A stretch of DNA of 37,791 nt from Jimgerdemannia flammicorona (Eukaryota), in assembly GCA_003990765.1 (NCBI GenBank), contig RBNJ01000178.1, positions 1 to 37,791 on the forward strand, read 5' to 3'. Positions 3,418 through 37,791 of the stretch are shown piece after piece (position 1 is the first letter of the stretch; the number at the start of each line of letters is the position of its first letter). The notes beneath the pieces are model-generated. The model ran no database searches. It was not told where the DNA came from and saw only the letters and a list, made by a program, of their open reading frames with translations. Position numbers and translations under genes: made by a program.

Positions 3418-3448
3418 GAGGAATATTGTTAAAGATTAAACCTCTCCT

Positions 3449-5489: not shown

Positions 5490-5572
5490 GATACTAGTAG
5501 CTTTCCTCCAGAAACTGCGTCAAAAGTGTTGCCAAAAGATTGTGTAACCTGAATGTTACCGGAGAAAGGATG

Positions 5573-8559: not shown

Positions 8560-10070
8560 TGATGAATAGTAGTAGAGATGATTATGCTAGTTAGTTTTTA
8601 TAGCTAAAAGATAGTTTCTTTATATATATGTATATTTTATACAATATAAGATTTTTCCTTAGGCTCTAGTTTTTATAATAATATATTCTAATATATTAGT
8701 ACTTAGTCTTCTATCTTGATAATCTCTAGAAGCTTTTAGATCTTCTCTGCATTATTCTGTTACAATACTTGTCTCATGATTATATAATCTTTAGCCTTCT
8801 TCCTTATATATTACAATTTCTCTATCTTTATATCTATATGTTTCTATACTATATCTCTATTGAATAACAGAGTTTATTTAGAACTTTCTTCTCTGAATGA
8901 CTATTCTCAAGAGGTGAAATATGTGTTTGTGATTAAATATCCTAGTGAGCAGATAATGCTATTAGCAGATAGTGGTCCTAAATTTTGTAGTTATTATAGA
9001 TCTTGGTAATAACATTCTTGAGTATCTTATTGATCCTTTCTGTCTACCCATTTCTCTGTAGATGATAAGAGATGGTTTATAAATTCCATACCTCTATATT
9101 TATTACTTGCTCAGGGTCTTGAATCAGCTGATAATCTCACTATAGAAGAAATCAGCAATTGATTATATGTATATTGAATTCTTTCAGGAATTCTACTTCA
9201 ATCTATTTCATAAAGAGGTCTATGATGATAATGATATATTAGTTATCAGTAAATATTAAGGATAGTGGCTCATAACCTTTATTATAATATAGGAAAAATA
9301 GTGCTGTTTCTATATTTACTAATTCTGGTATCTAGGTTTGCTGATATTACTTCTGTTTCTGATATTTATCATAGGTCTGAACAAATAATATAATATCTTT
9401 CTCTATTTTAGACTAATATATTGTTCTTCTTACTTTATTATAAGTATTTGTTCCTTTTAAATAGTCTAGTTCATACATATGCTGATTTCATTACTTATAT
9501 CTCTTGTAATCTAATATAACTTATAGTTTTTCTTCCTTTAGTATTTTTCTAATAGTTTTAAATTATTTCCAGGTTCTGTAGATAATTGTTTATATCAATT
9601 CTTTTAGATATTTGAGCATCTTTCACTGTCCCATATAGGTGATAATTCTATAGTAGAGTTTTTTTTATATTTTAATTTTACTTATTATAAATCCTTTGAG
9701 ATATCATGAAAGTATATCTATATTGACATTGGTTCTTTTTAGGCAGTGTATTATGATTGCATCATAGACTTATTATTCATGATCTATCTGGCAAATATTC
9801 CTTTAGGCTGGCTTATTGTCAATAGCTAGATAAGGCTGAAATTTTAGTCAGAATAGTAAAGTATCTTTCAGTAAGATAGTAATAGAACTTTTCTATAGTC
9901 CAGATAACTGCTAGATACTCTAGCTTATAGGATTCATATTCTCTTTCACTGCTATTGATTCCTTTGCTGAGATTTGCAATTATATATTCAACTTTATTCT
10001 TTTTTATATAATATTAGCTTTTGGTTAAATTAGCTTATATCTGTCTATAGAATGAACTTTTGGGATCAGT
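8560..10070 (-). mobile_element. Ty3/gypsy pol remnant (RNase H - integrase), heavily mutated
   Basis: Minus-strand translation gives KLEYLAVIWTIEKFYYYL (RH), YY*SKIEKDI..FVQTYDKYQK (decayed HHCC), SYHLQRNG*TERINKILK (IN core) and KLEPK (GPY/F module). Confidence 0.8.
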
Positions 10071-14600: not shown

Positions 14601-16595
14601 CCAATGTCCAGGCCCATCCCCACTTCTCTCAAACTGCTCATGCTCTTACAAGCTCCAATTGTCTTACAATGGGTACCACTCAATTTCCAGAGACTTTCAG
14701 ACATCCTGACCCCAGCAGTCAGCTGTCAGCACCCAGTCAATTCTAGTCCCCAGGTCATCTACCCAATGAGTATAGACCCTCCTATCTCCCCACATCACCC
14801 ATACAGTATCCACTAAGGAACTAAGTCGCTCTACCTCCTTCCAACTCTCCAGACCACCACTTCTGCCCCTGCATTTCTCCCCCCATCTGTCCTGTCTAAC
14901 TGTACTAAGTGAATCATATTAAAGTCCCCTCCAAGCACCTCCACTCCTGCCTCTACAAGTACTCCACTATCCAAAAGACTATCAATCCACTCTATATGCT
15001 TGACCCTAACTGTAGGGCTGTACCAAGATCTAACTACAATCAACTCTTATTCAGGCTGACACCACTCTCCCCAAACCATATGATCTCCCCAGTTCCTGCT
15101 TTCCCATATTTCCCCTTGCCTTTTCCACACCAGTAGCCCAACCTTACCATTTCAGAATGCTGCTCCACCCCATTCCCTTCTCCACTCCTTTTGATCAAGG
15201 TCCTTCTTACATCATACATCTTATAAAAGAAAGATATCTGTCTCTAATCCTCTTAACCAAGTAAAAATATTGTGTCATCTCCCAGAACCTCCCAGACCAT
15301 TCACATTCAATGATAAAATGTTAGTTGTAATGGTCATAAGGAAGAATGTTAAAATAGATGCATCCTCTTTACAACTTTCTGTTCACTTTCTCTCTAGCCA
15401 AGTTTAGTTTATACTCAACAGCAGCCTCTGCTCTATCAACCAGCTTAGCTTCTAGTCTACCCAAGAGCTCATCTATTGCTGTATCATCCTTCAACTCCAT
15501 ATCCCCCTGATACTCTAAACAAGCCTCTTGCCAAATCTCCAATCCACTCCTCTACTCTAATCAGAAGACTGTATGCTCCCTAGCAGCCCTCAATATCTCT
15601 GTCTCTCTCTCACTATCTACCTCATAATTCTCCTCATCTAAATACACTGCTAGCACCTCTTTTACCAGAGCCTCTACAACACTATCTCTCTGTAGAATTA
15701 TCATTCAGTTTACCTTACTGATGACTTGCAAGTCCACATCTCCCAACTTCTAAGCCACTAAGTTGTTTATCACCCAGTATAGCCACTGTAAGTCCCCAAT
15801 TTCCTTACCCCCAGGTGTTACTAGCCAGCCAGTTCCAAGCATCACAGTGTCTACCCCAGTACTTGCAGACTAATCCCACTCCTCCTCAGAGACATCCACC
15901 AGCTCTTCCTCTTAGATCTCAACCATCTGCCCTGCACTTGCTACCTCTGGTATACCAAAACAAATGTGGCAAGTCCCCAACATCTCTACATCCTCACCAG
16001 CTATTGGCTGGACACCCTGATCCATCCTTTCCATATCTCCATCCTCCTTCCACACCTCCTGTATACCATTGTCATAGAGAGCCTGATCCCTCTCCTCCTG
16101 GCCCCTGCTTATATGCTTTGGTACTCTTCCAATCTCTACTTCTGCCCAGATACTCTCCTTAGCACCCCCAGCCTCTTCAACTAAGCTTGTCTTCTCCTTC
16201 TCCTTCTTCTTCAGACTCACCAACAGCTCCTTCTACCTCTTATGCCTCTGAGCCCTCACCAACATTCCCTTGTCTACCCAAATCTACTTTCCATCCACTA
16301 CCTCCAAGTACATCAATTCTACATAATTCTGCCATACCTTGGCCCACTGCTCTACTGCCCTGCTGAGCTCCTCCAGTATCTCCACCAAGTTCTCCTCCTC
16401 CTCAACACTTCTCTTTATCCTTATCATCTTACAAATAAAGGCTCCCCACATTATCATTACTGACCAATTCCATGCCTTCTCAGTAGACTTCTTCCCTGCC
16501 AGCCTAAGGCAAACATCAACATCCCCTATTCTAAAAAAGGTCCCCTCTCAGACCTGAAACCCAATATCCACTATCTCATCATACTCAGCCATAGC
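11690..16595 (-). mobile_element. LINE copy C (5'-truncated within ORF1; ORF2 ATG 15337; cut near the 3' end)
   Basis: Motifs GGDFN, GVPQGDPLSPILY, AFADDMVV and CEEC..H..EEC. Colinear with copy A. Confidence 0.9.
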
Positions 16596-16599
16596 ATCT

Positions 16600-17444
16600 A
16601 GTTATCTGGTATATGTGATGCTGATAGGCCATAGACTTAGATGAGCATCAATCTACAACTGGGTACCTCTTCCATATTGGCAACCAAGGATCCATCATTT
16701 CATAGCAAACACATAAGCATAGTTCTATGGCAATATCATCAATTTAAGTGGAGTACCAGGTATTGTCATTAGCAACAAAGAAAGTCATTTAGCTTTGCAA
16801 GCTTTTATAGAAGCTTGGCTTTACTCAGGGGAACTCTACACTAATCAGGTAAGACAACTAATCCATGATAATACTTGTAAGAATCTATTCAGTATACTAC
16901 AGCAGAATGAAAAATATTGATATACAGTATTATTTTATATGTGAATGTATAGAAAATAGCACTATATATCTAGAATACATCTCTATTGAGAATATGATTG
17001 CAGACTCATTGACCAAAGCCCTTCCAAAGCCCACATTCAAGCAATGTACTAAAGAAATAGGTCTTATGAGTTATACACCAGTATGTGATAAATTTTGAAA
17101 TACTTTTCAAACAGTAAAAAATTTCTACATTAATCCAGACTTATATTACTAGTCTTTTACTATATTCTTTATCTATTTTTATACTTATAAGTAGGGAATT
17201 TTAACCTTCTGTAGTTACCTAGATAGTATCCCATTAGTTATCTTTGGTTTACTCTAGTTTGCTTCTATTCTAGTTTGTATTCTTTTTTTTAGATTATATA
17301 TCTTATTGAGCAGAAGTATTGGGATAGCAACTCAATATGTCAGCATATAATCTTATACTATTCTATCAGATATATATCATTCATTAGTAATGCAAGAATT
17401 ATACAATCTAAACAACTTCAATAAAATTACTTCTCTTTACAATA
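16600..17444 (+). mobile_element. Ty1/copia 3' remnant (RNase H, PPT, 3' LTR ~17317-17444)
   Basis: ICDAD..DLDEHQSTTGYLF. ORF 16865-17098 KNIDIQYYFICECIEN..MIADSLTKALPKP. GAGCAGAAG|TATTGGG is a decayed PPT/LTR junction. Confidence 0.87.
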
Positions 17445-17619
17445 ATGACTACCTTTTTTCTCTCCTATATCCAAAACCTTCTACATATATCTCCTCTCTA
17501 CTCAGCTCTCTACAATATGTACTACCCTAACTTAAAATAGTTCTAAAGTAAAGAGATATAGAGAACTAATAATTCTACGAGCAGATATACTTGAACTCAC
17601 CCACTCCTTCCTCTAACTG

Positions 17620-18447
17620 AGGCTTCTGAGAGATTAAATAAGATAAAGTATTCAAGATAAAAAAATCTGCTATACTTTTCATATTAAGTATTTGCTATAT
17701 TATATTATATATTATATTTATTATATAAATAAGATATAATTGTAAAATATATACTTAATTCAATTCTCTTTGAAAGTAATATAAATTGAATTGTTATTAA
17801 TCGTAAATATCATTCAACCCTAATTAACCATAACTCTAATAACTTAATTTTATTATATATTTAATATAAATAAATTTATTGAAAGTAAATTTAATGGTCA
17901 ATAATTAAATATGACAATTTTAAAATAAAAATTTTAATATTTGAATATTTAAAAATATATAATAATATATATACTAATACATAATTAATTTGATGACATT
18001 ACTTATAATAGTTATATAAAGTGAGTTCTCAGGCCCAAAAAGTCGATCTTGTAGACCTTCTAGAAATATCTGAAGTAGTATTTTAAATTGAATTTGACCC
18101 AAATTTAATTTGATTTAATTAAATCAAAGGTATAATTTAATTTAGTTGAAATTAAATTAAAGACTAATTTAATTCAAAATTAATTTGAACTCTATTCTTT
18201 TAAAATATAATAACTCAACTAATTCATATCTAAATTTAACAGTCTTTAGTATGTTAGATTCTCCTAGTAAATTTAACAAGTTAAAGATTGTTAAATTTTG
18301 AATATATTTTTATAAAGTTATTATATTTTTAAAAATATTATTTAAGTCAGACTCTTAATTTGATAGGAATTCAATTTGATTTGAAATTCAATCAAATTGA
18401 ACAATCTCTAATTCAAATCATTTGGGAATACTAATCTCAAAGTAGGA

Positions 18448-18450
<3 letters not shown>
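17620..18450. repeat. Extremely AT-rich segment with short inverted repeats; possible decayed non-autonomous DNA element
   Basis: AATTCAAAT/ATTTGAATT-type motifs and a perfect 14-bp inverted repeat at 18202-18215 / 18316-18329. Confidence 0.35.
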
Positions 18451-18453
<3 letters not shown>

Positions 18454-18498
<45 letters not shown>

Positions 18499-18597
18499 GA
18501 CTCAATATCTTAGATTTTGATTTGAAGGAAACTAAGACTATATCAGTTAAAACCTTCCCCACCTCTACTCTGAACACCATATCTCCATTAAATCTAG
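18454..18597 (-). mobile_element. 3' end of a polyadenylated retroposon (41-nt poly(T) on +), cut by the gypsy LTR
   Basis: Pure T tract at 18454-18494, then ~100 bp unique sequence up to the LTR start. Confidence 0.55.
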
Positions 18598-19889
18598 TAT
18601 GATGAGCAGTAGAATTATACTGCCAAAATTATAAATTAGCTATATACTATATCTAGTACACTAAGTAACTAAGACTGCTTTATTGTACCAATCTATATAA
18701 TTAGCCAAAGATAGTAGAAACAGTATGTTTAACTATACCTGTCCAGTATACTATACTGAGCCAATATACTATATTAGTCTAGAATACTATACTATTCAGG
18801 AATACTTACCATATATAGTAATCTATAATTAGCAATATAGTAACCAAGTAGTAACCACAACAGAATAAAATACACCAGAGATAAAGTGAATAAACCTCAG
18901 TCCAAAAAGTTGAAGTTCAAACCAAAGCTAAAGCTACAAAAGATTGTGAGCATTAGTTCTGTTTTCTCCACTCCAGTTTACTTTCCAATATAAAGAACAA
19001 GTTCAAGAGTATTTGCTGCCTAAGTTCAAGGAAGAACTTTGCTGCCATTTGAGTAATCTGCTGCTTAAAGAATAAGCCACTGTTTTCACAAGAAGCCCAC
19101 TATAATTTTGGTTTATTTGCCAGATAAGTCTGAAAGCTCTTTTACCATAAAGCTAGTCTTTCAACATAGCTTTACAGTAAACTTATTTGTACAAATGAAG
19201 TCAGTCTTGACATAACTTTGCCAAGTAAAGAAGAGAAGAATCAGCCATTCTCAGAGAATCCATCAGAATCTTGCTACAAGCCAGTCTATCTAATACAACT
19301 TTGCAGTAGAGCCAGTCCCTCTGATGTAAATCTATGTAAACAAAGCCAGGCTTTTATACAACTTGCTAAGAATCTACAACATCTGAGTTATCTGCATCAT
19401 TCAAGTTACTCAAGTTATCAAGTTATCTACTATTCCCAGAAGAGCTTACCAATTTAGAAGAATCTGCACCATCTGAGTTATTTCCTAGAAATCTGCCAAT
19501 TCAGAAAGAATCTATATCATCAGAATTATCTGTATCAAATTAAGTTTTCTGCCAAATCTGTATAAATAATACTGCTAAGATCATCTTGCCAGAATCTTAA
19601 ACTTTTAAAGATCATTATCCTATATAGAGATTATCAAATAGAAATCACAAATGAAAACTGCTCATATCATACAAAAATTGTAACTGCTTATATCCAAGAA
19701 CTCATTCAATAAGAAAATTGCCAAAGTTGCTCACAGATATCCAGCTTTGACAATTATATCACTAAACACCAAGAACCTCAGAAATCTTAAAACATTTGGT
19801 TACTTTTTGACAAAGTAACTGGAGATTTAAGCCAAATTACATCAATCCCCAATCTTGTAATTTGCCTCTATTGAGCCAGGGATGTTATA
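18598..19889 (+). repeat. 5' LTR (~1.3 kb) with internal sub-repeats
   Basis: The first ~370 bp align to 31256-31594. The end is inferred from GTTATA (decayed ..ACA) directly before a TGG-starting PBS. Sub-repeats at ~18740-18800 and ~19380-19550. Confidence 0.72.
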
Positions 19890-23640: not shown

Positions 23641-24020
23641 GTTCTGCTACATCCTAAGGCCAAACCCCTGACCAAAGCTAACTAAGAAGATATAAGGTAT
23701 GACCTTGACAGTCTGGAGGATGAATGATGTTCAGAACTAGACTAGTTATGCAGCTATCTCAAGGAACTTACATCCAATAGACCTCAAGGTCTGGACTTGC
23801 CAGACAAGGAGTAACTGTAAAAGGAGGAACTATAGATCCAGGATATATAGGTAAAATCAAGATCATCCTGCACAACAGTGGTACAAAATGGTACTGTATT
23901 CTTAGAGGAGAGAAGATTGCCCAAGCAGTCTATATGAAAGTCAAACCCCACAATTACAAGAAGTCACTGAACTGACTGAAGGAATAAGGCAAGCTGAAGG
24001 ATTTGAAAGATCAGATAAGT
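23641..24020 (+). pseudogene. dut: Trimeric dUTPase domain in pol
   Basis: LHPKAKPLTKAN*EDIRYDL, SRSGLA, GGTIDPGYIGKIKIILHN, GEKIAQ and RQAEGFERS correspond to motifs I-V. Confidence 0.9.
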
Positions 24021-24399: not shown

Positions 24400-27300
24400 A
24401 CTACTATAGAATAAATACAGAAAATATAACCTCCATCTGGCAGAAATCCTATAGAATACCCCATTATTTAAAAACATTCAAAATGGAACACATTCAAGAA
24501 CTCTTAGACAATGAAGTCATCTGACCCTCTGCTGGCCCTAGGGCAAGCCCTATACTTATTATACTAAAAAAAGGAGGAGGGAGACTCTGTATAAACTATA
24601 GGAAACTCAATTCAGTTATGGAAAAGGATACCTACTCTTTGCCCTGAATTGATGACCTTTTGGGCTATTTACAAGATGTCAGATACTCACAACATTTCTC
24701 CAGTAATATTCGAATTATACAAACTTCTCACAATATTTACAATATCATTTTTGAAGAATAGATATTAGGAATATGATAACCAATGAGTATTCTGATATGC
24801 TGGACAGGGCAGCTCTTGTGTATTTTACTGGCAGTATGTAGGGAGGAGTTATGGCTTGGGAGAAAGTATGTGAGACTTGCTGGCTAGAGGCTGTAGAAGG
24901 GGAGGGGGCAGGGCAGGGAGACAGGGAACTGGGAGGATGAGCTTTGCTGATAAGATGAAGGAGGGACAGCCATTGACAGGACTAGAGGGTTGGCTGAGAA
25001 AGGGCAAGGAGACAGTAAGAGCTACAGGGTCTGGTAGAGTGGCCCATAGTAGTGAGAACAGTATGACTGGGAGAGTAGTGGCTGGGGAGAGTGGGACTGC
25101 TGATGATAAGCAGACTGCCAATCTGAAAAAAAAACCAGATGTGATGGTTGATGGTGAATCTGGACAGAGGGGGGGGCATGAGTTCTGAGAATCAGTAGAT
25201 AGTATAATGGGTCTGGTGGCAGCACTATTACTCAAGAAATCCAGTTTGGAATTCACCATCACATTGTGTTTCTGGGGCTTAGCAGTAATGACAAGGATAA
25301 TTCTAGGGCTTCGAGCTTAGAAGGTGAGGAGCAGCCTTGGTGAAGTTTTTGAAGGATCTGGAAGAGATTGAGGTAGGCTTCAAGAAGGAGAAGAATCATG
25401 CTACTGGATATGGATCATAAACTAGTCACAAAGATACTAGTGGCTAGGCTATAAGGAGTGGCTTGGCAGGTTCTAGGGGCTGAGTATAGAGGATTTATAG
25501 GGAGATGTCTGATCAGAGATAGGACAGCCTGGGTGCATGGTATCATTGAGGAAGCTTATACTGCTAGGGTGGATAGATATGGCTTTTTTGAAATAAGAGA
25601 AGGCCTATGACAGGTCCAGCAAGTGTGGTTGAAAGGGGTGCTCAGGCATAAAGGGATCCCCCCTAGAGTTCAGCTGGTCTTAGTCAGTCTGCTGGAAGGG
25701 AGTTGAGTAGTAATTATAGTAAATAGGTACAGAGAAGTTTCATTCTCTCTGGGCAGAGGAGTGCTGCAAGGGGATCCACTGTTACTAATTCGTATATGTT
25801 GTCCCTGGAGTCTCTTTTGGATATAATACAGTTAAAGATGGGGGGGTTGGATATTCTGAGGATTAATTAGAAGGTGGGGGCCTTTGCTGATAATATTATA
25901 GTCAGGTTAGGGTCAGCAGAAGATGTGGTAGCATTGAAAGGTGCAGTAGAGTAGTACATATGAGGGGTGCTTGGGTGCTAAGTACAACTGGTATAAGTTT
26001 GAGACTTTAGTGTTAGGAGAAGGAATATTAGGTATAGATATAATTAGATCAATTATTCCTTCAGGAGAAGCTGTTTGATATCTGTAGATCTACTTTTCAG
26101 TATATGGCTTCTTGTTACCTCATGGCTGGTGAGAGCAGTGGCTGGCAGAGTGGGGGAGTACTCTCTCAGGGTGGGGTAATCTATATATATCTCTAGTAGA
26201 GAGGGTGATAGTGCTGAATGTCTACTGGTTATCTAAGCTATGATATCTGGAGAATGACTTAGACTTTCTGAGGTGGTCCAGAGATTGTTGAAGATGGCCA
26301 GGACCTGGATATGGGTAGGGTGAAGGAGTCAGATTGGCTGGAAGGTATTGATCATACTAGTGGACCAGAGAGGCCTGGGTCTGATGGATTTCTCTTAGTG
26401 TCTTCATTGCTTGAGAGCAGCAAGCTTGTATGTTGAGGAACAAAGAGTGGGTTCCTCTCATGCAGAGGATGTGGGAGGCCAAGTTCTCCTCCCATAGAGT
26501 GATTGGGCATCTAGTATCTCTGGTGGCTTTGAAGGAGAGTCAGAGGATACAATATAGGGGTTTCTGATAGGGAGTGGTTGATGGGGCTCACTATATTGAT
26601 CTTAAATGGTGGGGTAGTGAGGGGGAGGAGGAATGGGGACCTCAGATATAGAGGTGGGAATGCCTTCTGTTGGGTGGAGAGCCAGTAGTTAACTTCTGCT
26701 TAGAGGATGGTATGGAGTGCCTTCAGGAACCTGAGAGAGGTTCATGGTCTGAGGTGTAGAAGAGGATAGGGATTTAAGAAGAGTGGGACTAGAATGGCAT
26801 TTGATAGTAGGGCAAGAAGATAGTAAGATAGATTCCCCCAAAGTTCTGAGTGGTATAGCAGAGACTCTAATACTAATGTAATGTTAAACTACCAGTTGGA
26901 TCACTTCATAGAAAGAGGTATCCAGGAGTGTGAGGAGTGTCTGGATGTTAGATAAGAGAGAGGGGTGGTACAGACTTCTGAACATTGATTAGAGGAGTAT
27001 AAGGTGATGGGTGACCTTTGGAGGGCAATTGAGGTATAGCTGGGAGTGCACTCACTAGAGTTGTTGGTAGGAGAGAGGTGAGGTGACCTCTGGTGGAGGC
27101 TGGTGGGGGGGCTGAGAGATGAGTGGTTGATATTAGAATGGGTGTTGGCAATTTAGATCAGACTTGTTAAACATTGACTATATATATTTGAGGAAGATCA
27201 ACAGATGACATTACAGGTGATGGTTGCTAGATGGGAGTTGCTAATAATGCACCTGTTGAATGGGTAGTGGAGGGGGTGGAGTGATGGTAGAGAGTATCAG

Positions 27301-28495
27301 AGGTAACTGGTGGAGACAATCTGTAAGAAGAGTGGGAAGAGGATTGGGATAGTAAGGAGTTAGTAGTATTCCAAGTAGAACAGTGAGAGAAGGAGAGAGC
27401 TTCCAAGTGAGATTGGGTGAGGGGTTCAATGTTTGGTAATAAAAGTAGAAGTTCTTATAACTATAAAAAAAAAAAAAAAAAAAAAAAGATTTCTGATACT
27501 TCAGTAGTATGGAATTTTTTGTAGGATTTTACAAGATCCCCATAGACTGAAAGAACATTCAGAAAACAGTCATTCTTGCCCTAGAAAACTGTTTGAATAC
27601 CTCTGAATGCTCTTTGGACTTTACAATATACCTTCTACCTTCCAGAGAATGATGAACTCAGTCTATAGCCCACTGATCCACTACTCTCTGATTGTATATA
27701 TGGATGTTTCAAACATCTATTCAGCAAATTTTTGAGGAATATCTGTACTACCTAAAAGAATTGTTTAAGCTCACTCACAAGAATTACCTGAGACTTAATA
27801 CCAAGAAATATTACTTTGGAAAACAGAAACTTGAATTTTTGGGATTCATAGATTCAAATAAAAGAATCCATACAGAACTAAAGAAAACTGAGAAGATTAA
27901 TAATTGGCCAGTAAATAAGACCCTAAATAAAATACTGTCATTTCTGATACTAGTATCCTACTATAGAAGGTATATCAATAATTTTGTCCAAATTACTACC
28001 TCAATCTGAATTCTTCTTAAGAAAGAAGTATCTTATAAATAGATGAAATCATAAGAGAAAGCCTTCAAAGAACTCAAGCACCATATGACTACAGCACTAA
28101 TCCTTATTTGGCCCAATCTACAGAAGCAATTTATCTTATATATAGATGTCTTCAAAGATGGCCTCAGAGCAGTTCTAGCCCAAGAAGGACCTGACCAACA
28201 GTACTGTTTATTGGCTTATACAAGCTGAGCAATCAATCAGCAGCAAACCAACTATGATAGCACCAAACTGGAATACCTTGCAGTTATATGGGCAGTTACT
28301 CTGTTCAAGCATTACCTTATTAGAAAAAGGTTCACCCTAATAACTAACCATATAGCCCTCAAATAGCTATTCAATCAAAAAGAACCTGCCAGAATCCTAG
28401 CCTGCTAGATTCTTATCCTTTAGGATAAGAAAATCACTATCATTCACAAAGCAGAGAAAGCCCACAACAATGTTGATGTACTTTCCTACCAATCT
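24400..28495 (+). pseudogene. pol: gypsy reverse transcriptase + RNase H, split by LINE copy D
   Basis: ASPILII.KKGGGRLCINYRKLN..LP*IDDLL up to 24687. Resumes at ~27500 with YFSS..GFYKIP, MLFGLYNIPSTFQR and VYMD, then RH KLEYLAVIWAV..FKHYL. Confidence 0.9.
24688..27485 (+). mobile_element. LINE copy D: both termini present, ~3 kb internal deletion, poly(A), 15-bp TSD
   Basis: 5'UTR and ORF1 start, a jump to RT (IMLLDMDHKLVTK) at ~25393, and poly(A) at 27465-27487. TSD AAGATGTCAGATACT (24673-24687) / AAGATTTCTGATACT (27486-27500). Confidence 0.9.
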
Positions 28496-28539
28496 TAATG
28501 AACTAGAAGAAGGGTATACAGAGGAACTATATCCTACAG

Positions 28540-29610
28540 TTTAGACAACTTCTTTCTCTTGAACCATACCAGTCAAAGGTCTGGGTGGAAATTGAATCCC
28601 TATGGTGCAGAGGAAGGGGGGCTCTCAGACAATACAGACAACATGGGTAACATGGGTAACACAGGTGAGCAAGATGTGCAAGATGGACAAAACAGGTAAG
28701 ATGAGCAAGATGGGTAAGATAGTAAGATGACAAGATGAGTAACATGGGCAAGATGGGAAAGACAGGCAAGATGGGCAAGATGGGGCAAGATAGGTAAGAT
28801 GACAAGATGGCAAGATGGACAACATGGGCAAGATGGGCAGAAGGCAAGATAGGTGATATGGGCAAGATTGGCAAAATGAGCAAAACAGGCAAAACAGGCA
28901 ATATAGGCAACACAGGCAACATGGGCAACATGGGCAGGCAACATGGGTAACATGGGCAATATAGGCAATACAGACAACATGAGCAACATGGGCAATACAG
29001 GCAACATGGGCAATAAGGGCAATATGGGCAACATGGGTAACATAGACAACATGGGCAGGCAAGATGGGCAAGATAAGCAAGATGACAAGATGGCAAGATG
29101 GGCAACATGGGCAAGACAGGCAGACAGCAAGACAGACAATATAGGCAAGATGGGCAAAATGGGCAAAATGAGCAATACAGGTAACATGGGCAGCATGGGC
29201 AATATGGGCAACATGGGCAGACAAGACAGGCAAGATGGGCAAGATGGACAAGATGGGTAAGATGGGTAAGACAGGCAAGATAGGTAAGATGGGCAAGACA
29301 GATAAGATAGGTAAGATGGGTAAGACAGAAGGCACTAATCGGAGTAGGTCAGATATACTAGATGCCAAGTACTTGAGGTGGTTGGGGCTCACAACTCATA
29401 CCCACTCTTGGGTAGGGCAGGCTAGGTAGAAGGATCTAGTTACTTGAGCAGTGAGGTCACAACTCATACCCTAAAGGTGCAAGGCTGAGTGAGTGTAAAG
29501 GTGGGTTAAGATTGAGGTAGAATAGGACTACTGATGTTGTATGAGGACATGTGGCATGTTATAGATAGTTAATAAATGAGAAAAAAAAAAAAAGAGGAGG
29601 AGATAAGATG

Positions 29611-29680
<70 letters not shown>
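28540..29680 (+). mobile_element. Non-autonomous VNTR-containing polyadenylated retroposon with 15-bp TSD
   Basis: TSD AACTATATCCTACAG (28525-28539) / AACTATATCCTAAAG (29681-29695), AATAAA at 29571, and an A-rich tail at 29581-29682. Sits between gypsy RH and IN. Confidence 0.82.
28628..29330 (+). repeat. 9-bp minisatellite (GGCAAGATG / GGCAACATG units), ~700 bp
   Basis: Directly visible. Blocks of AAG-type and AAC-type units with occasional 4-bp GGCA slips. Confidence 0.95.
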
Positions 29681-29684
<4 letters not shown>

Positions 29685-29699
29685 ATATCCTAAAGAAAG

Positions 29700-30705
29700 C
29701 TCTCCAGACTATTAATATATAAGAAGATCTCATCTGAAAAGAACACCAGAAAGCCCACCAAGAATAGGCAAATATAAAAGAAAAGTTATGAACATACCAA
29801 TATTGGCCCAATCTCAGAATACAAGTCTGGGACATACTCAAGAAATATGACATATACCAGAAGTATCAAGGAGAGAAGAACCATCAAGCACCACTACAAC
29901 TAATCAAACCATCAGACAATATCTTTCAGAGATGGTAAGTAGATATAATTAGACCTCTACTAGTTACATCAAGAAGTAACAAGTATATTCTCATATTTAT
30001 AGAGTATCTGACTAAGTGGCCTGAAGCTTTTCCAATAGAAATCACAAATGCCTTGACCATTGTAGGTCTCCTCTATGGCCTCACACTCAGATATGGACTC
30101 TCAGAAGAACTCATCTATGATCAAGATACTGAATTGATCAATAATATAATTATAAGTTATATCTGAATTCACAAGATCCATCTTAAATAAACCATATAAT
30201 ACTAAACTCAGACCAATGGTATGACAGAACAAATGAACCAGACCATCAAGAAGGGACTTGCCTGAGTCTATTCTACCAACTGGGACCTCTGCTTACCTGA
30301 GATCCTATGGAAATTCAGAATACCCATACTGCTTCTATCAAACAAATGCCCTTCAAGATGATTTTTGCCAAGAAAATCAGAACTGTTGACAATGAGAACC
30401 TCAGAGACCTCTTCAAGAAGGCAAAACAGTTATATAATTAAGTATAAGTTCAGATTATCAAGGCTTAAGAGAGATAAAAGAAGTACTATAACCAGAAGTA
30501 GAAGGATCAGAAGATCAAGATTGGAGATCAAGTAATAGTTTGGAGAATTATAATTGAAACAAACTTTGTTGCCAAACTGGAGCCCAAATGGGAAGAACTT
30601 TAACTTATATATAATATCAGAGGAACCAGTATCTATTTAAGAAGTATGGATGGACAAACCCTGAGGATACCAGGATATATCAACTATCTCAAGATATACC
30701 TCTCT
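29700..30705 (+). pseudogene. gypsy integrase with GPY/F module, decayed
   Basis: VDIIRPL..NKYILIFIEYLTKWPEAFP, YDQDTEL, QTNGMTEQMNQTIK and KIGDQV..KLEPKWE. Confidence 0.88.
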
Positions 30706-31255
30706 CCATACCATAAACCAGACAATTGACCAGCATCTTCAGATCCTTATCAGGAGTTCATTCTAATCACTTCCAGTTCCCTTACCACAATTTTACCAAG
30801 TCAATGGAAATCCCATCTAATAAATCCAGACCCATTAGGAGAACCTCACCCTGGCCAGATATTTACTACAAGTCCACCAGCTATAGATCTACTATGCAAT
30901 TAGAGAACAGTTGCAGAACCTTCTAGCCCTAGATCTAACCTATATCAGGAACTCTACTGGTCTAACCTGGAAAAACACCTGTGATGCAGACAGTTTGTAT
31001 ACAATCTACAAATGAAACACCCCAGTACTCATACAGATACAGTTCTCCCTGAATGATATACTACAAATAAATCCTACCATCTATCTAAGTATCATCAATC
31101 ATATTGAAATTCTATTCTCAGAAGAATCTATTAAATAGAGTGACTCTAGTCCAAATAAAGACAATAGTTCAGGTATTAATGCAGAAAATGCTTATGTATA
31201 TTGGAATGATGACTAAAGGATAGTCTAAGAATAACCATTCTTTAGTAGTGGCTGA

Positions 31256-31594
31256 TGTGATAGGCAGTAGAATTGTACTGCCAATATCATAAATTTGCTA
31301 TATACTATATCTAGTATACTAAGCAACCAAGACTACTTTACTGTGCTAATCTATATAATAAGCTAGAGATATTAGAAACAGTATGTTTATCTATACCAGT
31401 CTAGTATACTGTATCATCCAGAAACACTTATCATAGATAGCAATCTATAATTAGCAATATAGTAATCAGGTAGCAATCACAACTATATTAAATACTCCAA
31501 AGTTAAGAGTGAATAAACCTCAGTCTGAAAAGTTGAAGTATAAACCAAAGTAAAAGCCATTAAAGATTGTGAGCATTGATACTCTTTTCCCAAC
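31256..31594 (+). repeat. 3' LTR of the gypsy element (first ~340 bp, interrupted by copia)
   Basis: TGTGATAGGCAGTAGAATT.. aligns with 18598 onward through AAGATTGTGAGCATT. Confidence 0.9.
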
Positions 31595-32240
31595 TATTGA
31601 AATATCTTAGTATCTTGATATGTGGTGGCAGTACTAATCTTCACCTATATCATCAATATAGATATCATCAAGAAGACATCATCATGGAATACATAAAAGC
31701 ATGTATTCAATAATCAATAATAAACTAGCTTGCTCTCTTCTACTCTCTTAACTGTTATCTATAATAAAGATTATGAGTCCCAATTAGCAGCTCTATATAT
31801 ACCTCTTATATATATGTTATATACTATCAACTAATACTAGTGGCAGAAGCACTGGAGGTAGTGCACCAGTTCTAAGTAGTTCAAGTGGAATGGAACCCAG
31901 AATGGGTACTGGTATAAGTATATCTATTACAATAATTATAACAATGACCATTTTGGTTGTGGTGGTGGCAATAATAGTAAAAAGGATGATTCCTGTCTTT
32001 GAAGATAAGGATTATGCCATATAGGCATACTATATGAAGAATCTACTTAAAGAATGTGGTTTGGAGGACTATAAGAAGCCATAGGTACAAATTATAACAT
32101 ATGATGGTACAAAGGATTACAAAGTACTAAGGGAGATTATATTCACTCTTTCAAATATGTAAATAAAGCTCATAATCAACACTACAACAGTGAAAAAGGC
32201 CTGGGAAATTTTATTTAATCACTATTAATAAGAATTTGCA
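31595..32240 (+). mobile_element. Ty1/copia 5' portion (LTR ~31595-31766, PBS, gag N-terminus), interrupted by LINE copy E
   Basis: TATTGA start (decayed TGTTGA). AGATTATGAGTCCC at 31768 resembles the copia GGTTATGAGCCC PBS. Gag IPVFEDKDYAI*AYYMKNLLKECGL..TTTVKKAWEIL. Confidence 0.75.
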
Positions 32241-32242
32241 TC

Positions 32243-35200
32243 CAACATACACTCCTCCTGATACATCTCACATTATACAAATATATATTATCTACTTTTA
32301 CACTGTTTTTTTAGAGAAATGTCTTAAGAATATGTCCTTAAATTGGAGTTCTATAGAGTATACTAAGCAGGGTAGCCCCAGTACATTCAGCTGGCAGCAT
32401 GTGGAGAGGGGTCAGAGAGTAGGGTTGGGGATGCTGAGCACCTTATCAGAAGGAAGGGGGGTCAGCAGTAGTAGAGGAAATATGGCACAGTCAGGAGGAA
32501 AGTAGATGAGCTTTGCTGAGAAGGTCAAGCAGTGGAGTCTGGTGGCTGGACTGGATGGATGGCTGCAGAGTGGCAAGGGGAAGGCTACTGCTGGAGGGCT
32601 GGGAGGAGCTCCCTTGGGGGTGTCAAGTGGAAGGGCTGGTGGTTTAGTAGTAGAGGGTATGACTGCTGATGGAGCAGTAACTGTTAATCTGAAAAAAAAT
32701 CCAGATGTGACTACTGATGGTGGGGCTTAGAAGATGGGGCCTGGGTGGATAGGAGATCTGACAGATGGTATAATAGTCCAGGTGGTGGTTCCATTAATCA
32801 AGAAGTTGATCTTAGAGTTCATGGTTACTTTGTGCTTCCAGGGCTTGATAGTAATAACAAAAATGGTTTTGGGGCTAATTGCTAAGCAGATGGAGGGTGC
32901 AGCACTGAAGGCTTGGCTAATTGTTAGAGAGATATATATTCTGATGACATGCTATATGATGTGGGACCCCAGGATGGTATAACTGCTGGTGAAAGGAGTA
33001 CCCATGGTGACTACTATAGAGATAAGGATGAGAGTTGAGAAAGTCATAGCTGAGTATAGAGAGGTGGTCATTATTGGATTTTAGGTCTGGGAAGAGGATA
33101 GAGAATATTGATGTCTGGATTTGGTTGGCTGAGAGGGAGGTCACTGAGAAGACTTATGATAGGCCATTAGTGATAGTGTGGGGGGCCTTTATGTGTAAGG
33201 TAATGAGAGTGAAGAGGAGTAAGGAGGATGAGAAGGATTTGTTGGATACATTAAAGGAGCTGAGTAGTGTGGTGGAGAGGAGGGTGAAGGCTTGGAAGGC
33301 ATATATGGAGTTGATATATTTGGAGGTAGTAGATGGGAAGTAGATCTGTGTTGATAAGAAGCTGTGAGAGGTCCTAAGGATGCAAGAGGTAGAGGGAGTT
33401 GCTGGTGAATCTGAAGGGAAAGGCAAAGACGGATACAGTGAAATTGAGGATACTGGAGGAGCCAAAGTGAGTATCTGGGCCAGCAAAGGTGGAAGGAATT
33501 TGAAGGAGGGTCCAGAAGTGGCCAGTGAGGTACCTAGTAAGAACCTATATATAGATGGTATGTTTGAGGTCTGGGAGGACACTCCTCCTCTTATCTGACA
33601 GAGTCCAGCCTCAAGGGGTCAGGTGGTAGAGGATGTGTATATGTGTAGTATCCAGAGTATACACTTTTGAGTTTCTGAGATAGTGAAAGGGAGACAGGTG
33701 GTGGCAGCTAGTGAGAATGAACTGGTGGATATCTCTGAGGAGGAGTAGGATGATACTGCAAGTATAGGAGCTGATACCTCAATACTGGGGAAGGAGAGAC
33801 TAAAAACTCCAGATGGAATAAAGGTGGGCAACCTTTAATAGATGTACAGGATGATGATAACTTGGCAGCTGAGGAGTTGGGAGAAGTGGACCTGAGAGTA
33901 CTTAGTGATGATCAATGGATATAAATCTTGTGTGATAATGGAGTAGTGGAGGTCCAGAAAGTGGAGGTACTTACAGTTTTCTTGGAAGAGAAAGGATATG
34001 AGATCAATAAGGTAAGGGAGGCAGAGCTGGCAGTTGTCACTATTGAGCAGGCTGCCCTCTGGTGGGTAGAGAGATATGAATTGTAGCTCTGCCAGGAGGC
34101 CTGCTTGGAGTATTATGAGGACTTTGAGAAAAAGGAAAATGGGGAACTTGCTGAACTACTGATTGGATTGAAAGCTAAGAAGGTTGAAGAGGAGGAGGTG
34201 GCTGCTGAACACAATTTGAACTTAATACAGAAGGAGATGAATGTGGAGCTGTAGAGGATGTGCTTGACACTTAATATTATTTCTTATAAATAGTACAACT
34301 AATATTTTTTCTTTGAATGTGAATGGGCTACAGAGTTCAGTTTGACATTGAAACATTTTTACTTGGCTGAAGGGATTGGAAGCTGATCTCTTTCTTTTGC
34401 AAGATATTAGATGTGAAGAGGACTTGAATAGGCTGAATTAGATGAAGGAATGGGGAGGTGAAGCTGTTTAGAAAGACAAGGTTAGGATTTTGATCAGGAG
34501 TGGCAAAGGGGAGATCTGAGATATGAGATGCTGGAGTGACCAGCTAGTTTGGAGAGAGTGGGTTCAACCAGGTTGGAAGCCCATAACATTTGATTCTTAC
34601 TACTGCCCTGCTATACAGAGTGGGTGAGTAGAGTGGGTAAGGAGACTTTAGAAAAGTGGGGCTCTTGCCAAGGCTGGAGTAGATATTCTTAGTAGAGACT
34701 TCAACATGGTCCAGGATGTGCTAGTGGATAGAACTGATAGAGAGCAGGGGGCTGGGGGCAGGAGAGGGGGTCTGGAGATATTGGAGAATGAAAAAAGGTT
34801 AAGCTCTCTGATAGATACTGATAGAGTGATCTTAGAAGACAAGAGGGTCTACATATACTGGACAAATAGACTGGAAACTAGGATTGACTGAGTGCTGATG
34901 GTAGACTGCTGGGGTTTGGGTGTTTGGAAGTTACTGGAGATAGTGTAGTGTCTGCAGTCTGATCATTGGAGATTATTGAGATGGGGTAATTTTTGGGAGA
35001 GTGGGGACAGACCAGGACATTAGTGCCTCAGCTCCTCTCTGCTAGTAGATGGGAGCTGTGAAATGAGATATTCAGTGGATGATTGGTAGTTGGATTGGTG
35101 AGAGCCTCTCTATAGATACTCATTGGAAGTGGTTGAAGAAGAAGACAAGAGTTTACTGGGAGGAGACTGGTCAGACTGCAGGAGGCCAGAGGAGTGATGG

Positions 35201-37791
35201 GCCTCCAGCAAGCTCACCCAGCTACAGGGTATTTGGGCCCAGCTGCTGAGTTTAGAGGAGATTGATGATTAGAGGGTAGTACATGCCAAATTGGAGGTGG
35301 TGGAGCTGTAAACTGTTTTGAGAGAGGATGAGGAGATGCATGTAAAGGAGATGGTTGCTCAGTTGCAGTGGTAGAGAATAGAGGAGAGAGAGAGGCCCTC
35401 TAGATATCTTTCTAGGCTACTTTGGGCTCGGTGGACAAAGCAGAGGTGGGATAGCATGGTTTATTTGGAGAGTGTGCTTGTTCATGGCACACAGCAGATC
35501 CTTGGCTCTCTCAAAGAATGATGAAGTAATTTATAGAGTAAGGAGGATGGGGGTGCCAAAACTGTGGACATTGAGCATACTAAGGAGGACTAGAACCTAT
35601 CTCCAGTAGATAGTATTGAGTAGCTATCTTGGCCAGTTCAGGAGGGGGAGATTCAGTGAGTCATCTTCACTACAAAGGCTGGCACAGCTTCTAGTAAGGA
35701 TGGGCTCTCTTGGGATTTCTGAAAATGAATAGTGGGGATCTCTGGTATGTTTGGTAAAATGGTGGCATTGTGTGATCATGTTCTCTTAAGAGAGGTGGGT
35801 TGGCAAGCAGGATCTTGGCTTGGTGACCTTGCTCTATAAGAATAAGGGTGATAGAGAAGATTAGAATAATTGGTGGCCAATTATGCTCCTGGGTATGGAT
35901 AGGAAGTTAGTTACCAAGATAATTGTGGCATGACTATAGTATGTAGTCCAACAGGTGCTGGGTGAAGAGCAGTATGGCTTTATTGGGGGCTGACTCATTT
36001 ATGATAGTACTACATAGGTGTATGGTATCATTGAGGGGATAAACACAAGTGAACTAAATGGGAGACTAGTTTTTTGGATCAGGAAAAAGCCTATAATTAG
36101 GTGAGATATTACTGACTGGGTAGTGTGTTGGACAGAATTGGGGTCCTGTGATAATTCCTGATTTCTATGATCAGTTTACTAGAAGATAGCAAGGTGGCAA
36201 TTTTGTATAATAAATATAAGAGAGTGACCTTCATCCTAGGAAGAGGAGTTCTGCAAGGGAATTCACTATCACCTATTCTTTATACTCTCTCTTTAGAGCC
36301 CCTTATCAATAGGATATGGCAGAGTGTAGCAAAGTTGTCAGTGTTTGGAGTTGTTTGGAATGTGGGCGCCTTTGTGGATGATATAGCAGTGGGACTTGGC
36401 TCTGTAGTAGATATGGGGGTATTGAAGGAGATGGTGGAGTGGTATGAGATATGTTCTGGGGTACAGTTGAATTGGGATAAGTGTAAGATGATGGTGCTAG
36501 GGAATAGAGTGGTGGGGGGGGACATCATTGGAACAATTGTCTCAGCAGGTAAGGCTGTGTGGTACCTTAGAGTGTATCTGTCTATATATGAGTCTGTTCC
36601 AACTACTGAAGATATAGTACTTGGCCTACTATCTGAATCTTCCTCCTTAGGTGGTGTGGCAGAAGTTGATGATGGCTAAGGATTGAATCTGAATAGAGTG
36701 TCAAAGTCTGATTGGTTGGAGCACCCTGGTACTTCCAGTAAATCAAAGGGGTCTTGGTCTAGTGGATTTCCTGAAGAAGCTTTATTGTTTGGGGGCCTGG
36801 TGGTTGAGGAGGGCTGTAGAACTGTAAGGGGGTGGCTGGGTCCCTTTGATACAGAAGGTGTAGGAGATGAGGGTTTCCCTGAGGGGCTCTACAGGGGATC
36901 TTCTGTCATTGGTGGGCCTGTAGAGCAGGGGGAGATTGCACTTCAGGGGATTCTGGTGGGGGATTGCTGTGGGGGTACATTACATTGGACTGCAGTGGTG
37001 AGGTGATGAGGGGGATGTACTTTGGGGGCTGGTAATGTGGTATTGAGATAGACTCCTGCTTGGGGGCTCTCTTCTTATTGAATTTGATATTGAGAATGAG
37101 ATTGAGTGTCAGCAGGAGATGGGGCTAGATGTGTGGCCAGTGGGTTGGCAGGATATTGGTATAAGTAAGAAGTGTGACTAGACTAGAGTTTGGTCCTGGA
37201 GTGCTGCAGTCAAGCAGTGACTTCCCCCTAAGTTTTGAGTAGTATAGTAGTATATGCTGAGGAGGAATGTCATATTGGACTTCTGCTCTAGATATTTGGT
37301 TGATGGTGAGAAGTTTGAGTGTGAGGTTTGTCTTAATGTGGATCAGAAAAGAGGTTTTGTACAGATGCCATAACATTGGCTGAGAGAGTGTGAGGTGCTT
37401 GGCAATTTTTGAATTACTATAAGAGAGTACCTGGGGGTTCAGAGGAGGAGAGATATAGTGGGGGACTATTGGGAGAACTTGAAGGTATGGCTTATAGGGG
37501 GAGTGGGGAATGAGTGGCATATGTATGGCTGGATCTTAGCGATTTGAGTGGGGCTAGCTGGGCATTGGCTCTTATATTTGAGGAAGAGTGATAGTAGAGC
37601 CTTACCAAGAGGTTATTGCGATGGGATAGATTGATGGAGAATCTCTTGACTGGCTGGTGGGTGGGCTGAGGGCCTCAGGATGGCTGCCATTGCCAGCTTA
37701 TTGATAGGGTCTGCCAGCAGAGTGAGGTCAGATAGTGGTGATTGCAGGATGAGTGGCATTCAAACAAGTGGGGTCCCTCTTAGGGGGATTG
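32243..37791 (+). mobile_element. LINE copy E, near full length and degraded; runs off the window end
   Basis: ORF1 homology ending at TAG 34254. ORF2 starts at 34286 (ATA; NSTTNIFSLNVNGL..LQD) and contains DQEKAY, GVLQGNSLSPILY and AFVDD. Confidence 0.9.

What the first reader, a model, noticed from the sequence alone, without database searches (positions are those of the whole stretch)
28525..29695. SVA-like composite retroposon: leader + 9-bp VNTR + unique 3' arm + poly(A), with 15-bp TSD
Seen: a 1.14 kb insert with no credible protein gene, bounded by a 14/15-identical TSD. It ends in AATAAA and a ~100-nt A-rich tail, and removing it restores gypsy RH-IN continuity. The TSD length and AA start match those of LINE copy D nearby. 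Established: poly(A) plus a ~15-bp TSD are hallmarks of target-primed reverse transcription by L1-clade LINEs, and VNTR composites are best known from hominoid SVA/LAVA. Inference: this is a non-autonomous VNTR retroposon mobilised in trans by the resident LINE. I see no clear pol III A/B boxes.
Basis: partly seen in the sequence, partly recalled or inferred. Interest (0 to 1): 0.8.

Follow-up and report, generated by a model that had tools for sequence, protein, structure and literature searches.

The report
Poly(A) minisatellite retroposon inside old gypsy
A 1.1-kb non-coding piece of DNA built around a 9-base repeat was copied from RNA and pasted into an old gypsy retrotransposon by LINE-type machinery, but whether it belongs to a jumping family like human SVA could not be tested.

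Summary
A 1141-bp insert (28540-29680) lies between a 14/15-identical 15-bp duplication. At up to 1 mismatch that 15-mer occurs only at these two places; 0.02 are expected by chance. The insert has an 87-bp leader, a ~700-bp 9-bp minisatellite, a 242-bp unique arm, AATAAA, and a 100-nt tail that is 89% A. It sits between the RNase H and integrase-core domains of a decayed gypsy. The window's LINEs carry an endonuclease and a reverse transcriptase closest to L1 ORF2p among solved structures. One copy ends in AATAAA plus poly(A) with a ~17-bp duplication that also starts with AA. LINE-type retroposition of a polyadenylated, non-coding RNA is therefore well supported (~0.9).

The "SVA-like composite family" claim was not tested. 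No genome is held, no sequencing run was listed, and every external search was blank. The arms match nothing else in the window. Repeat positions 7-8 read TG/CA/TA and never CG, the pattern of a decayed CpG. Frame-breaking partial units argue against a coding source.

My best reading is a non-autonomous, pol II-type retroposon (0.45). The rivals are a one-off retrocopy and a truncated end of a longer element.

The parts
28525..28539 (+). Left copy of the 15-bp target-site duplication (AACTATATCCTACAG)
   Evidence: 14/15 identical to 29681-29695; 0.02 such matches expected by chance in the window.
28540..28626 (+). 87-bp unique 5' leader of the insert
   Evidence: no significant match elsewhere in the window; no Rfam family (E<=1) and no tRNA; fold z-score -0.46, not special.
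28627..29328 (+). 9-bp minisatellite (about 76 units) in alternating blocks of AAGATGG-type and AACATGG-type units
   Evidence: TRF 28669-29325, 75.7 copies, 71% matches; 68 whole units parsed; positions 7-8 are TG in 42, CA in 16, TA in 10 and CG in 0; 10 of 12 inter-unit segments have lengths not divisible by 3; 0 CpG.
29329..29570 (+). Unique 3' arm holding an internal imperfect ~34-bp direct repeat (29370-29403 and 29441-29471)
   Evidence: no similarity to LINE 3' ends or to the rest of the window beyond chance; fold z-score 0.24. G 76, C 36.
29571..29576 (+). AATAAA polyadenylation signal, the only one in the insert
   Evidence: It ends 34 nt before the long A run, so cleavage near 29610 would lie just beyond the usual distance (inference, distance recalled).
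29581..29680 (+). A-rich tail: 13 A, a 17-nt spacer (29594-29610) that contains a repeat-unit-like 9-mer, then an A run to 29682 with one G
   Evidence: 89 A in 100 bases; TRF reports a 72-nt A run at 29611-29682; the spacer 9-mer AGATAAGAT also occurs once in the array.
29681..29695 (+). Right copy of the target-site duplication (AACTATATCCTAAAG)
28118..28411 (+). Host gypsy RNase H domain (decayed), upstream of the insertion
   Evidence: PF17917 E 1.6e-23, read through with X at stops. One search found the same domain in ORF pieces.
29918..30301 (+). Host gypsy integrase catalytic core (decayed), downstream of the insertion
   Evidence: foamy-virus integrase core E 4.3e-5. IS481 DDE transposase E 1.5e-6. 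Pfam rve E 0.069 over profile positions 6-98 of 102, below cut-off.
24690..27487 (+). Internally deleted copy of the resident LINE ('copy D'), nested in the same gypsy. It ends in AATAAA plus 23 A, with a ~17-bp TSD (24673-24689 and 27486-27503). Candidate driver family.
   Evidence: homology to the other LINE copies starts at 24689-24695; ends and TSD read by eye. A run of 23.

Best explanation
The insert is a retroposed copy of a polyadenylated, non-coding RNA, most likely transcribed by RNA polymerase II. The endonuclease and reverse transcriptase of the resident poly(A)-type, L1-like LINE pasted it into the RNase H-integrase linker of an older gypsy element by target-primed reverse transcription.

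I think the source was most likely a non-autonomous retroposon lineage rather than a host gene. Its body is a short leader, a once CpG-rich 9-bp minisatellite and a unique 3' arm carrying AATAAA. That makes it work like SVA or Eg-R1 elements without being related to them.

Shown:
- The insertion and its TSD.
- The AATAAA and A tail.
- The lack of any gene.
- Nesting in the gypsy element.
- A resident LINE with the same end hallmarks.

Inferred:
- Mobilisation in trans by that LINE.
- Pol II transcription.
- Membership of a family.

After insertion (or partly before), C-to-T and G-to-A decay removed all repeat CpGs, as it did in nearly all repeats of this window. I put about 0.9 on LINE-type retroposition and 0.45 on the whole statement including family membership.
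For: Retroposition hallmarks:
- A 15-bp TSD, 14/15 identical, with 0.02 expected by chance.
- A single AATAAA 34 nt before a long A run, and a tail of 89 A in 100 bases.
- Insertion between gypsy RNase H (E 1.6e-23) and integrase core (E 4.3e-5). About 350 nt (~117 codons) of gypsy sequence lie between the two domains once the insert and one TSD copy are left out.

Candidate driver:
- Read through with X at stops, the LINE ORF2 (540-3290, minus strand) matches human L1 ORF2p at E 2e-40 over query residues 169-833, against 3.6e-14 for R2.
- It matches RVT_1 at E 6.7e-31. It matches Exo_endo_phos at E 0.0097, below that family's cut-off.
- LINE copy D ends in AATAAA plus 23 A and has a ~17-bp TSD that also starts with AA.

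Non-coding source:
- 20-23 stops per + frame.
- 10 of 12 inter-unit segments in the array break the reading frame. The flanking, at least equally old gypsy RT-RNase H region reads in one frame over about 1 kb.

No pol III-type head: Rfam gave 0 matches at E<=1 and ARAGORN found 0 tRNAs.

Weak hint of long LINE dependence: sense-strand G over C skew is +0.36 in the arm and +0.39 in the array. The LINE sense strands show +0.34 to +0.54 and the gypsy about 0.

Precedent from passages read:
- Eg-R1 of Blumeria is a non-autonomous, AAUAAA-bearing element judged to be pol II-transcribed, without A or B boxes (10.1101/242271).
- EhSINE1 carries one to four internal 26-27-nt repeats (PMC2996970).
Against: - Only one copy was seen. 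This TE-dense 37.8-kb window holds at least four LINE copies, yet no second copy or fragment of either arm.
- Nothing shows that the arms derive from other repeats, so 'composite' is unproven.
- Nothing shows a promoter in the leader or that the 5' end is complete.
- The LINE clade is not resolved. L1 and R2 were the only LINE-type proteins among the solved structures matched, so 'closest to L1' is a coarse statement.
- The ratio of 42 TG to 16 CA is not the symmetric decay expected in double-stranded DNA, so part of the unit variation may predate insertion.
Confidence: 0.45

Rival explanations
1. One-off retrocopy. A host pol II transcript (a non-coding RNA, or an mRNA that is mostly untranslated region and minisatellite) was captured once by the LINE machinery. 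There is no family.
For: The retroposition hallmarks are the same as above. No second copy lies in the window. The repeat read as Gly-x-y gives Collagen hits at 21.9 and 28.5 bits against a cut-off of 27.2, so a repeat-protein mRNA cannot be fully excluded.
Against: No + frame is open: 20-23 stops per frame. 10 of 12 inter-unit segments break the frame, which decay dominated by transitions would not produce. By recall, in genomes with active poly(A)-type LINEs most such inserts belong to families rather than being single retrocopies of non-coding RNAs. The G over C skew resembles that of the LINE.
Confidence: 0.25
2. The insert is a 5'-truncated 3' end of a longer element. That could be a different autonomous LINE whose 3' untranslated region carries a minisatellite, or a longer non-autonomous element. 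The 'leader' would then be internal sequence and not a true 5' end.
For: By recall, 5' truncation is the commonest outcome of LINE-type insertion, and tandem repeats in LINE 3' regions are common. Nothing marks the 5' end as a transcription start.
Against: There is no similarity to the 3' end of LINE copy D or to any other LINE sequence in the window. For the arm and the leader, 4 target regions were tested. Only short chance-level matches were found: the best are 14 of 15 bases and a 30-column gapped match, both to one region (1-600), and the window-wide scan was topped only by A-run matches. No coding remnant was detected in the leader.
Confidence: 0.2
3. This is not a retroposition. It would be a minisatellite that expanded in place inside gypsy-borne or other DNA, with the flanking 15-mers and the A run arising by chance or by another insertion mechanism.
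For: Minisatellites can expand in place. The gypsy is old: its LTR-like ends are 82% identical.
Against: The TSD is far beyond chance. The A tail abuts the right TSD exactly and AATAAA sits at a plausible distance upstream. Gypsy protein homology stops and resumes at the insert borders.
Confidence: 0.05

Closest known systems
Hominoid VNTR composite retrotransposons (SVA, LAVA, PVA, FVA), mobilised in trans by L1
   Same: ORF-less, with a central tandem-repeat domain between unique 5' and 3' parts, AATAAA plus poly(A), a TSD of LINE type, and a repeat domain that was apparently CpG-rich. Mobilisation of SVA and LAVA by L1 in trans is stated in the abstracts of PMC3287187 and PMC7353768 (listing).
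   Different: There is no hexamer repeat or Alu-like head, and no match to any Rfam family, which by recall include the 7SL-type. Units are 9 bp; SVA units of roughly 35-50 bp are recalled. The arms were not shown to derive from other repeats. The family is described as specific to hominoid primates (abstracts of PMC4432496 and PMC7353768), and this window is plainly not primate. Copy number here is unknown.
Eg-R1 (and Egh24) of the powdery mildew Blumeria: non-autonomous non-LTR retroposons thought to be transcribed by pol II
   Same: Non-autonomous, without A or B boxes, carrying AAUAAA and expressed as polyadenylated RNA. They coexist with abundant LINEs (passages of 10.1101/242271).
   Different: That paper reports that genomic Eg-R1 copies lack an encoded poly(A) stretch. 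No internal minisatellite is described in the passages I read.
EhSINE1 of Entamoeba histolytica
   Same: A non-autonomous LINE partner with a variable number of internal tandem repeats between conserved 5' and 3' parts, flanked by TSDs (abstract and passages of PMC2996970).
   Different: It has only one to four repeats of 26-27 nt, and the search there allowed elements of at most 700 bp. By recall its LINE partner is not of poly(A) type. The element here has ~76 units of 9 bp and a long A tail.
Processed pseudogenes and retrocopies made by L1-type LINEs
   Same: TSD, poly(A) tail and AATAAA, with dependence on a LINE in trans (general knowledge; review listed, PMC3747384, abstract only).
   Different: No decayed ORF and no protein homology. 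The body is two-thirds non-coding minisatellite.

Membership tests
SVA/LAVA-type VNTR composite retrotransposons | 5' hexamer repeat plus Alu-like (7SL-derived) region | tested here: not met
   The leader is an 87-bp unique sequence without a simple repeat. No Rfam family matched at E<=1 on 28300-29900. The SVA structure itself is recalled and comes from no call.
SVA/LAVA-type VNTR composite retrotransposons | Central variable tandem-repeat domain | tested here: met
   75.7 copies of a 9-bp unit arranged in blocks. The unit is far shorter than SVA units (recalled). Variability between copies could not be tested.
SVA/LAVA-type VNTR composite retrotransposons | Modules derived from other mobile elements (composite origin) | tested here: inconclusive
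   The arms match no LINE, gypsy or other sequence in the window, but only 37.8 kb of the genome could be searched.
SVA/LAVA-type VNTR composite retrotransposons | Dispersed multi-copy family with distinct TSDs and varying repeat length | not testable with these tools
   No genome is held and no sequencing run was listed. Pattern and protein scans of public collections found no copy.
LINE-mediated (target-primed) retroposed insertion | Target-site duplication of about 7-20 bp directly flanking the insert | tested here: met
   15 bp, 14/15 identical, 0.02 expected by chance.
LINE-mediated (target-primed) retroposed insertion | 3' poly(A) tail abutting the TSD, preceded by a polyadenylation signal | tested here: met
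   AATAAA at 29571-29576 and an A run at 29611-29682 that runs into the right TSD.
LINE-mediated (target-primed) retroposed insertion | A resident autonomous LINE with endonuclease and reverse transcriptase that makes the same kind of ends | tested here: met
   RVT_1 at E 6.7e-31. Exo_endo_phos at E 0.0097, weak and below cut-off. L1 ORF2p at E 2e-40. Copy D has AATAAA, 23 A and a ~17-bp TSD read by eye.
LINE-mediated (target-primed) retroposed insertion | Actual mobilisation in trans by that LINE | not testable with these tools
   This needs an experiment or population data.
Pol III SINEs (tRNA, 7SL or 5S head) | 5' head homologous to a small RNA with A and B boxes | tested here: not met
   0 Rfam matches at E<=1 and 0 tRNAs by ARAGORN in the window. 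By eye the leader holds only a poor B-box-like 11-mer directly next to a poor A-box-like one, which is the wrong spacing.
Processed pseudogene of a protein-coding gene | Decayed ORF with protein homologues | tested here: not met
   20-23 stops per + frame and 10 of 12 frame-breaking inter-unit segments. Only compositional Collagen hits at or below the cut-off. The minus-strand ORF search found nothing. The + strand ORFs were not sent to the large protein search.

The most novel reading that the evidence does not exclude
This copy belongs to a dispersed family that arose independently of primate SVA. It would be a pol II-transcribed, ORF-less retroposon with a CpG-rich minisatellite core that parasitises an L1-like LINE in a non-primate genome. 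The host is possibly fungal, judging from the dUTPase-bearing gypsy, the near-total CpG loss in repeats, and LINE relatives seen only in metagenomes. The repeat core would have been a target of methylation-driven decay.
Probability: 0.3. Interest if true: 0.6.

Novelty: new variant of a known kind. Interest (0 to 1): 0.35.

Why it matters
VNTR-cored retroposons mobilised by LINEs are described as specific to hominoid primates (abstracts of PMC4432496 and PMC7353768). A family with the same layout in a distant eukaryote would show that this architecture arises repeatedly. It would also offer a second system for asking why a tandem-repeat core helps an RNA hijack LINE proteins.

As it stands there is one old, decayed copy. 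It is a clean example of LINE-type retroposition nested in a gypsy element, and on its own it is ordinary.

Tried and rejected
Searches for other copies (all blank, none counted as evidence either way):
- The window's own genome is not held.
- Earlier notes of this scan held nothing on this genome or on look-alike sequence. The 8 word hits concern other genomes and do not bear on this finding.
- One 25-nt stretch of the 3' arm had 0 exact matches in the metagenome, prokaryote-genome and viral collections.
- The 273-aa minus-strand ORF across leader and array gave no hit at E<=0.001 among the 8000 candidates scored.

Attempts to identify the host or fetch more of its DNA through the LINE:
- ORF 3452-4489 gave no hits.
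- The RT C-terminal piece (264 aa) gave no hits among longer proteins.
- One metagenome contig, L001, was found. It is 80% identical in protein over 65 residues and about 68% identical in DNA. It matches only LINE and gypsy parts of the window and nothing in 28540-29680.
- The viral and prokaryote-genome collections gave nothing.
- The exhaustive search found 1840 relatives at E<=0.001. Of the 10 clusters I looked up, 9 carry no name and one is called 'exonuclease III'.
- The Atlas gave only broad eukaryote labels.
- The host therefore stays unidentified.

Sister gypsy empty site: the flanks 27488-28539 and 29681-31500 have no DNA-level sister in the window apart from the LTR-like pair.

Shared 3' tail with the LINE: local alignments of the arm and the leader against 4 LINE end regions gave only short chance-level matches.

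RNA structure: z-scores of 0.24 (arm) and -0.46 (leader), nothing special.

The bacterial promoter and terminator scan is irrelevant to a eukaryote.

A TSD for the 41-T run at 18454-18494 was not found.

Supplements of the papers were not consulted.

Full report
**Observation**

The 15-mer AACTATATCCTACAG at 28525-28539 recurs as AACTATATCCTAAAG at 29681-29695, 14 of 15 bases identical. At up to one mismatch these are the only two occurrences on either strand of the window. Dinucleotide-preserving shuffles give 0.02 expected, and 0 of 100 shuffles reached two. At up to two mismatches the expectation is 0.23.

Between the two copies lie 1141 bp (28540-29680):
- An 87-bp leader.
- A 9-bp tandem array. 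TRF places it at 28669-29325 with 75.7 copies, 71% matches and consensus GCAAGATGG. By eye and by my parse it runs from about 28627 to 29328.
- A 242-bp unique arm with an internal imperfect 34-bp direct repeat at 29370-29403 and 29441-29471.
- The only AATAAA of the insert, at 29571-29576.
- A 100-nt tail with 89 A.

The tail is 13 A, a 17-nt spacer, then an A run to 29682 with one G. The 13-A run starts only 4 nt after the hexamer. I therefore infer that it was encoded in the source RNA and that cleavage and polyadenylation took place near 29610, 34 nt after the hexamer. The spacer contains a 9-mer that also occurs once in the array.

**No gene**

The three + frames over 28540-29580 carry 23, 20 and 22 stops. 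The long minus-strand ORFs (273, 244 and 256 aa) are open in all three frames across the array, which is what the composition of the repeat gives. Pfam finds only Collagen hits to the Gly-x-y reading of the repeat, at 21.9 and 28.5 bits against a cut-off of 27.2. I read these as compositional.

My parse recognised 68 whole units and 12 inter-unit segments. 10 of the 12 segments have lengths not divisible by three. The neighbouring gypsy RT-RNase H region is at least as old, yet it still reads in one frame over about 1 kb, apart from stops. I conclude that the array was non-coding already in its source.

**Context**

With stops read as X, the left flank gives RT_RNaseH at E 1.6e-23, mapping to 28118-28411. 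The right flank gives an integrase catalytic core at 29918-30301:
- Foamy-virus integrase core, E 4.3e-5.
- IS481-type DDE transposase, E 1.5e-6.
- Pfam rve, only E 0.069, below its cut-off.

The duplicated 15-mer encodes L-Y-P on both sides. With the insert and one duplicate copy left out, about 117 codons separate the two domains. By my recall of gypsy Pol layout, that is the usual room for the integrase zinc-finger region.

The gypsy element itself has these features:
- A dUTPase domain at 23781-23972.
- LTR-like ends at 18566-18972 and 31221-31595, with 305 of 370 aligned columns identical, 42 transitions and 23 transversions.
- A second nested insertion, LINE copy D.

No sister gypsy copy exists at DNA level in the window, so the empty-site test could not be done.

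**Candidate driver**

At least four LINE copies share homology. Read through with X, ORF2 of the best-kept copy (540-3290, minus strand) gives:
- RVT_1 at E 6.7e-31, and a weak Exo_endo_phos match at E 0.0097, below cut-off.
- Human L1 ORF2p at E 2e-40 over 665 residues among solved structures, against 3.6e-14 for R2.

This shows an endonuclease-bearing LINE but does not fix the clade, since few LINE proteins have been solved.

Copy D begins at the LINE's own 5' end (homology starts at 24689-24695). It ends in AATAAA and 23 A at 27465-27487. By eye it is flanked by a ~17-bp duplication, 24673-24689 and 27486-27503, with two mismatches and one indel, starting with AAG. The resident LINE therefore makes the same kind of ends as the insert.

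**Mutation pattern**

CpG observed/expected is 0.00-0.03 in every repeat of the window except the best-kept LINE, where it is 0.21. It is 0.02 in the insert and 0.00 in the array.

In the 68 parsed units, positions 7-8 are TG in 42, CA in 16, TA in 10 and CG in 0. The other variable positions differ mostly by transitions; the exceptions are the G-type versus C-type units at position 5 and a single A at position 2. TG and CA alternatives with no CG are the signature of a decayed CpG, so the array was once CpG-rich.

A mutation regime that hits only C and G also explains how a long pure A run and an AT-rich TSD can survive in an old insertion (inference). The excess of TG over CA suggests that part of the variation predates the insertion (inference).

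**What could not be tested**

Whether other copies exist is the crux, and no tool reached the host genome. The blank searches are listed under Tried and rejected. Inside the window neither arm has any match beyond chance. There is no tRNA or Rfam-type head and no unusual RNA fold.

**Reading**

LINE-type retroposition of a polyadenylated non-coding RNA is well supported; I put it at about 0.9. For the source I favour a non-autonomous, pol II-type retroposon lineage (0.45 for the whole statement), for three reasons:
- The RNA was non-coding.
- By recall, most such inserts in LINE-rich genomes belong to families.
- The sense-strand G over C skew of the arm (+0.36) and the array (+0.39) resembles that of the LINE sense strands (+0.34 to +0.54) and not that of the gypsy (about 0).

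That last point is only a hint. A one-off retrocopy (0.25) and a truncated end of a longer element (0.2) remain open.

**Comparison with known kinds**

The layout works like SVA/LAVA: a tandem-repeat core, AATAAA, poly(A), TSD and dependence on an L1-type LINE. It fails the family's defining head, and the composite origin is unshown.

VNTR composites are described as hominoid-specific (abstracts of PMC4432496 and PMC7353768). The closer functional relatives are two:
- Pol II-type non-autonomous retroposons such as Eg-R1 of Blumeria (passages of 10.1101/242271).
- LINE partners with internal repeats such as EhSINE1 (abstract and passages of PMC2996970).

My searches for a described non-primate VNTR retroposon were few and do not show that none is in print.

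**Host**

The host was not identified. Three observations fit a TE-rich fungus:
- dUTPase-bearing gypsy elements are reported from fungi (passages of PMC2864245).
- CpG loss in repeats through 5mC deamination is reported for a large rust genome (passages of 10.1101/2025.05.29.656941).
- The LINE's closest relatives occur only in unnamed metagenome assemblies.

This remains an inference.

Noticed in passing
window 1-8201 (-), 12001-17000 (-), 24690-27487 (+), 32001-37791 (+): The LINE copies have a very strong sense-strand G over C skew (about 0.35-0.54 per 1-kb window) and tryptophan/glycine-rich ORFs. The best-kept copy spans more than 8 kb. Its 346-aa ORF at 3452-4489 matched nothing in the protein search, and the upstream ORF pieces and the 3291-5134 read-through matched no Pfam family. 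The closest relatives of the RT C-terminal piece are unnamed metagenome proteins.
   Followed up: partly
whole window: CpG is almost completely lost from repeats (observed/expected 0.00-0.03) except in the best-kept LINE copy (0.21). A related LINE on a metagenome contig (L001) has 0.50.
   Followed up: partly
window 23781-23972 (+): A dUTPase domain (E 3.5e-11) lies inside the gypsy element, upstream of its reverse transcriptase region. Such gypsy elements are described from fungi (PMC2864245).
   Followed up: partly
window 18454-18494: A run of 41 T, which is a poly(A) tail on the minus strand, lies about 70 bp from the start of the gypsy's left LTR-like repeat. No TSD was found, and the adjoining sequence is not similar to the 3' end of LINE copy D.
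   Followed up: partly
window 18566-18972 and 31221-31595: LTR-like direct repeats of the host gypsy, 82% identical (305 of 370 aligned columns), with 42 transitions against 23 transversions. The element is old, and both nested insertions are younger than it.
   Followed up: yes
window 16980-17070 (+): By eye, a copia-like C-terminal motif (an ...ADSLTKAL... type reading) next to very AT-rich DNA at 17100-18450, which holds several short AT-rich tandem repeats. No Pfam match.
   Followed up: no
window 9822-10013 (-): A second, unrelated gypsy RNase H fragment (E 6.4e-12) sits in a 27-30% GC stretch between two LINE copies. It is too diverged to serve as a sister copy for the empty-site test.
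   Followed up: partly
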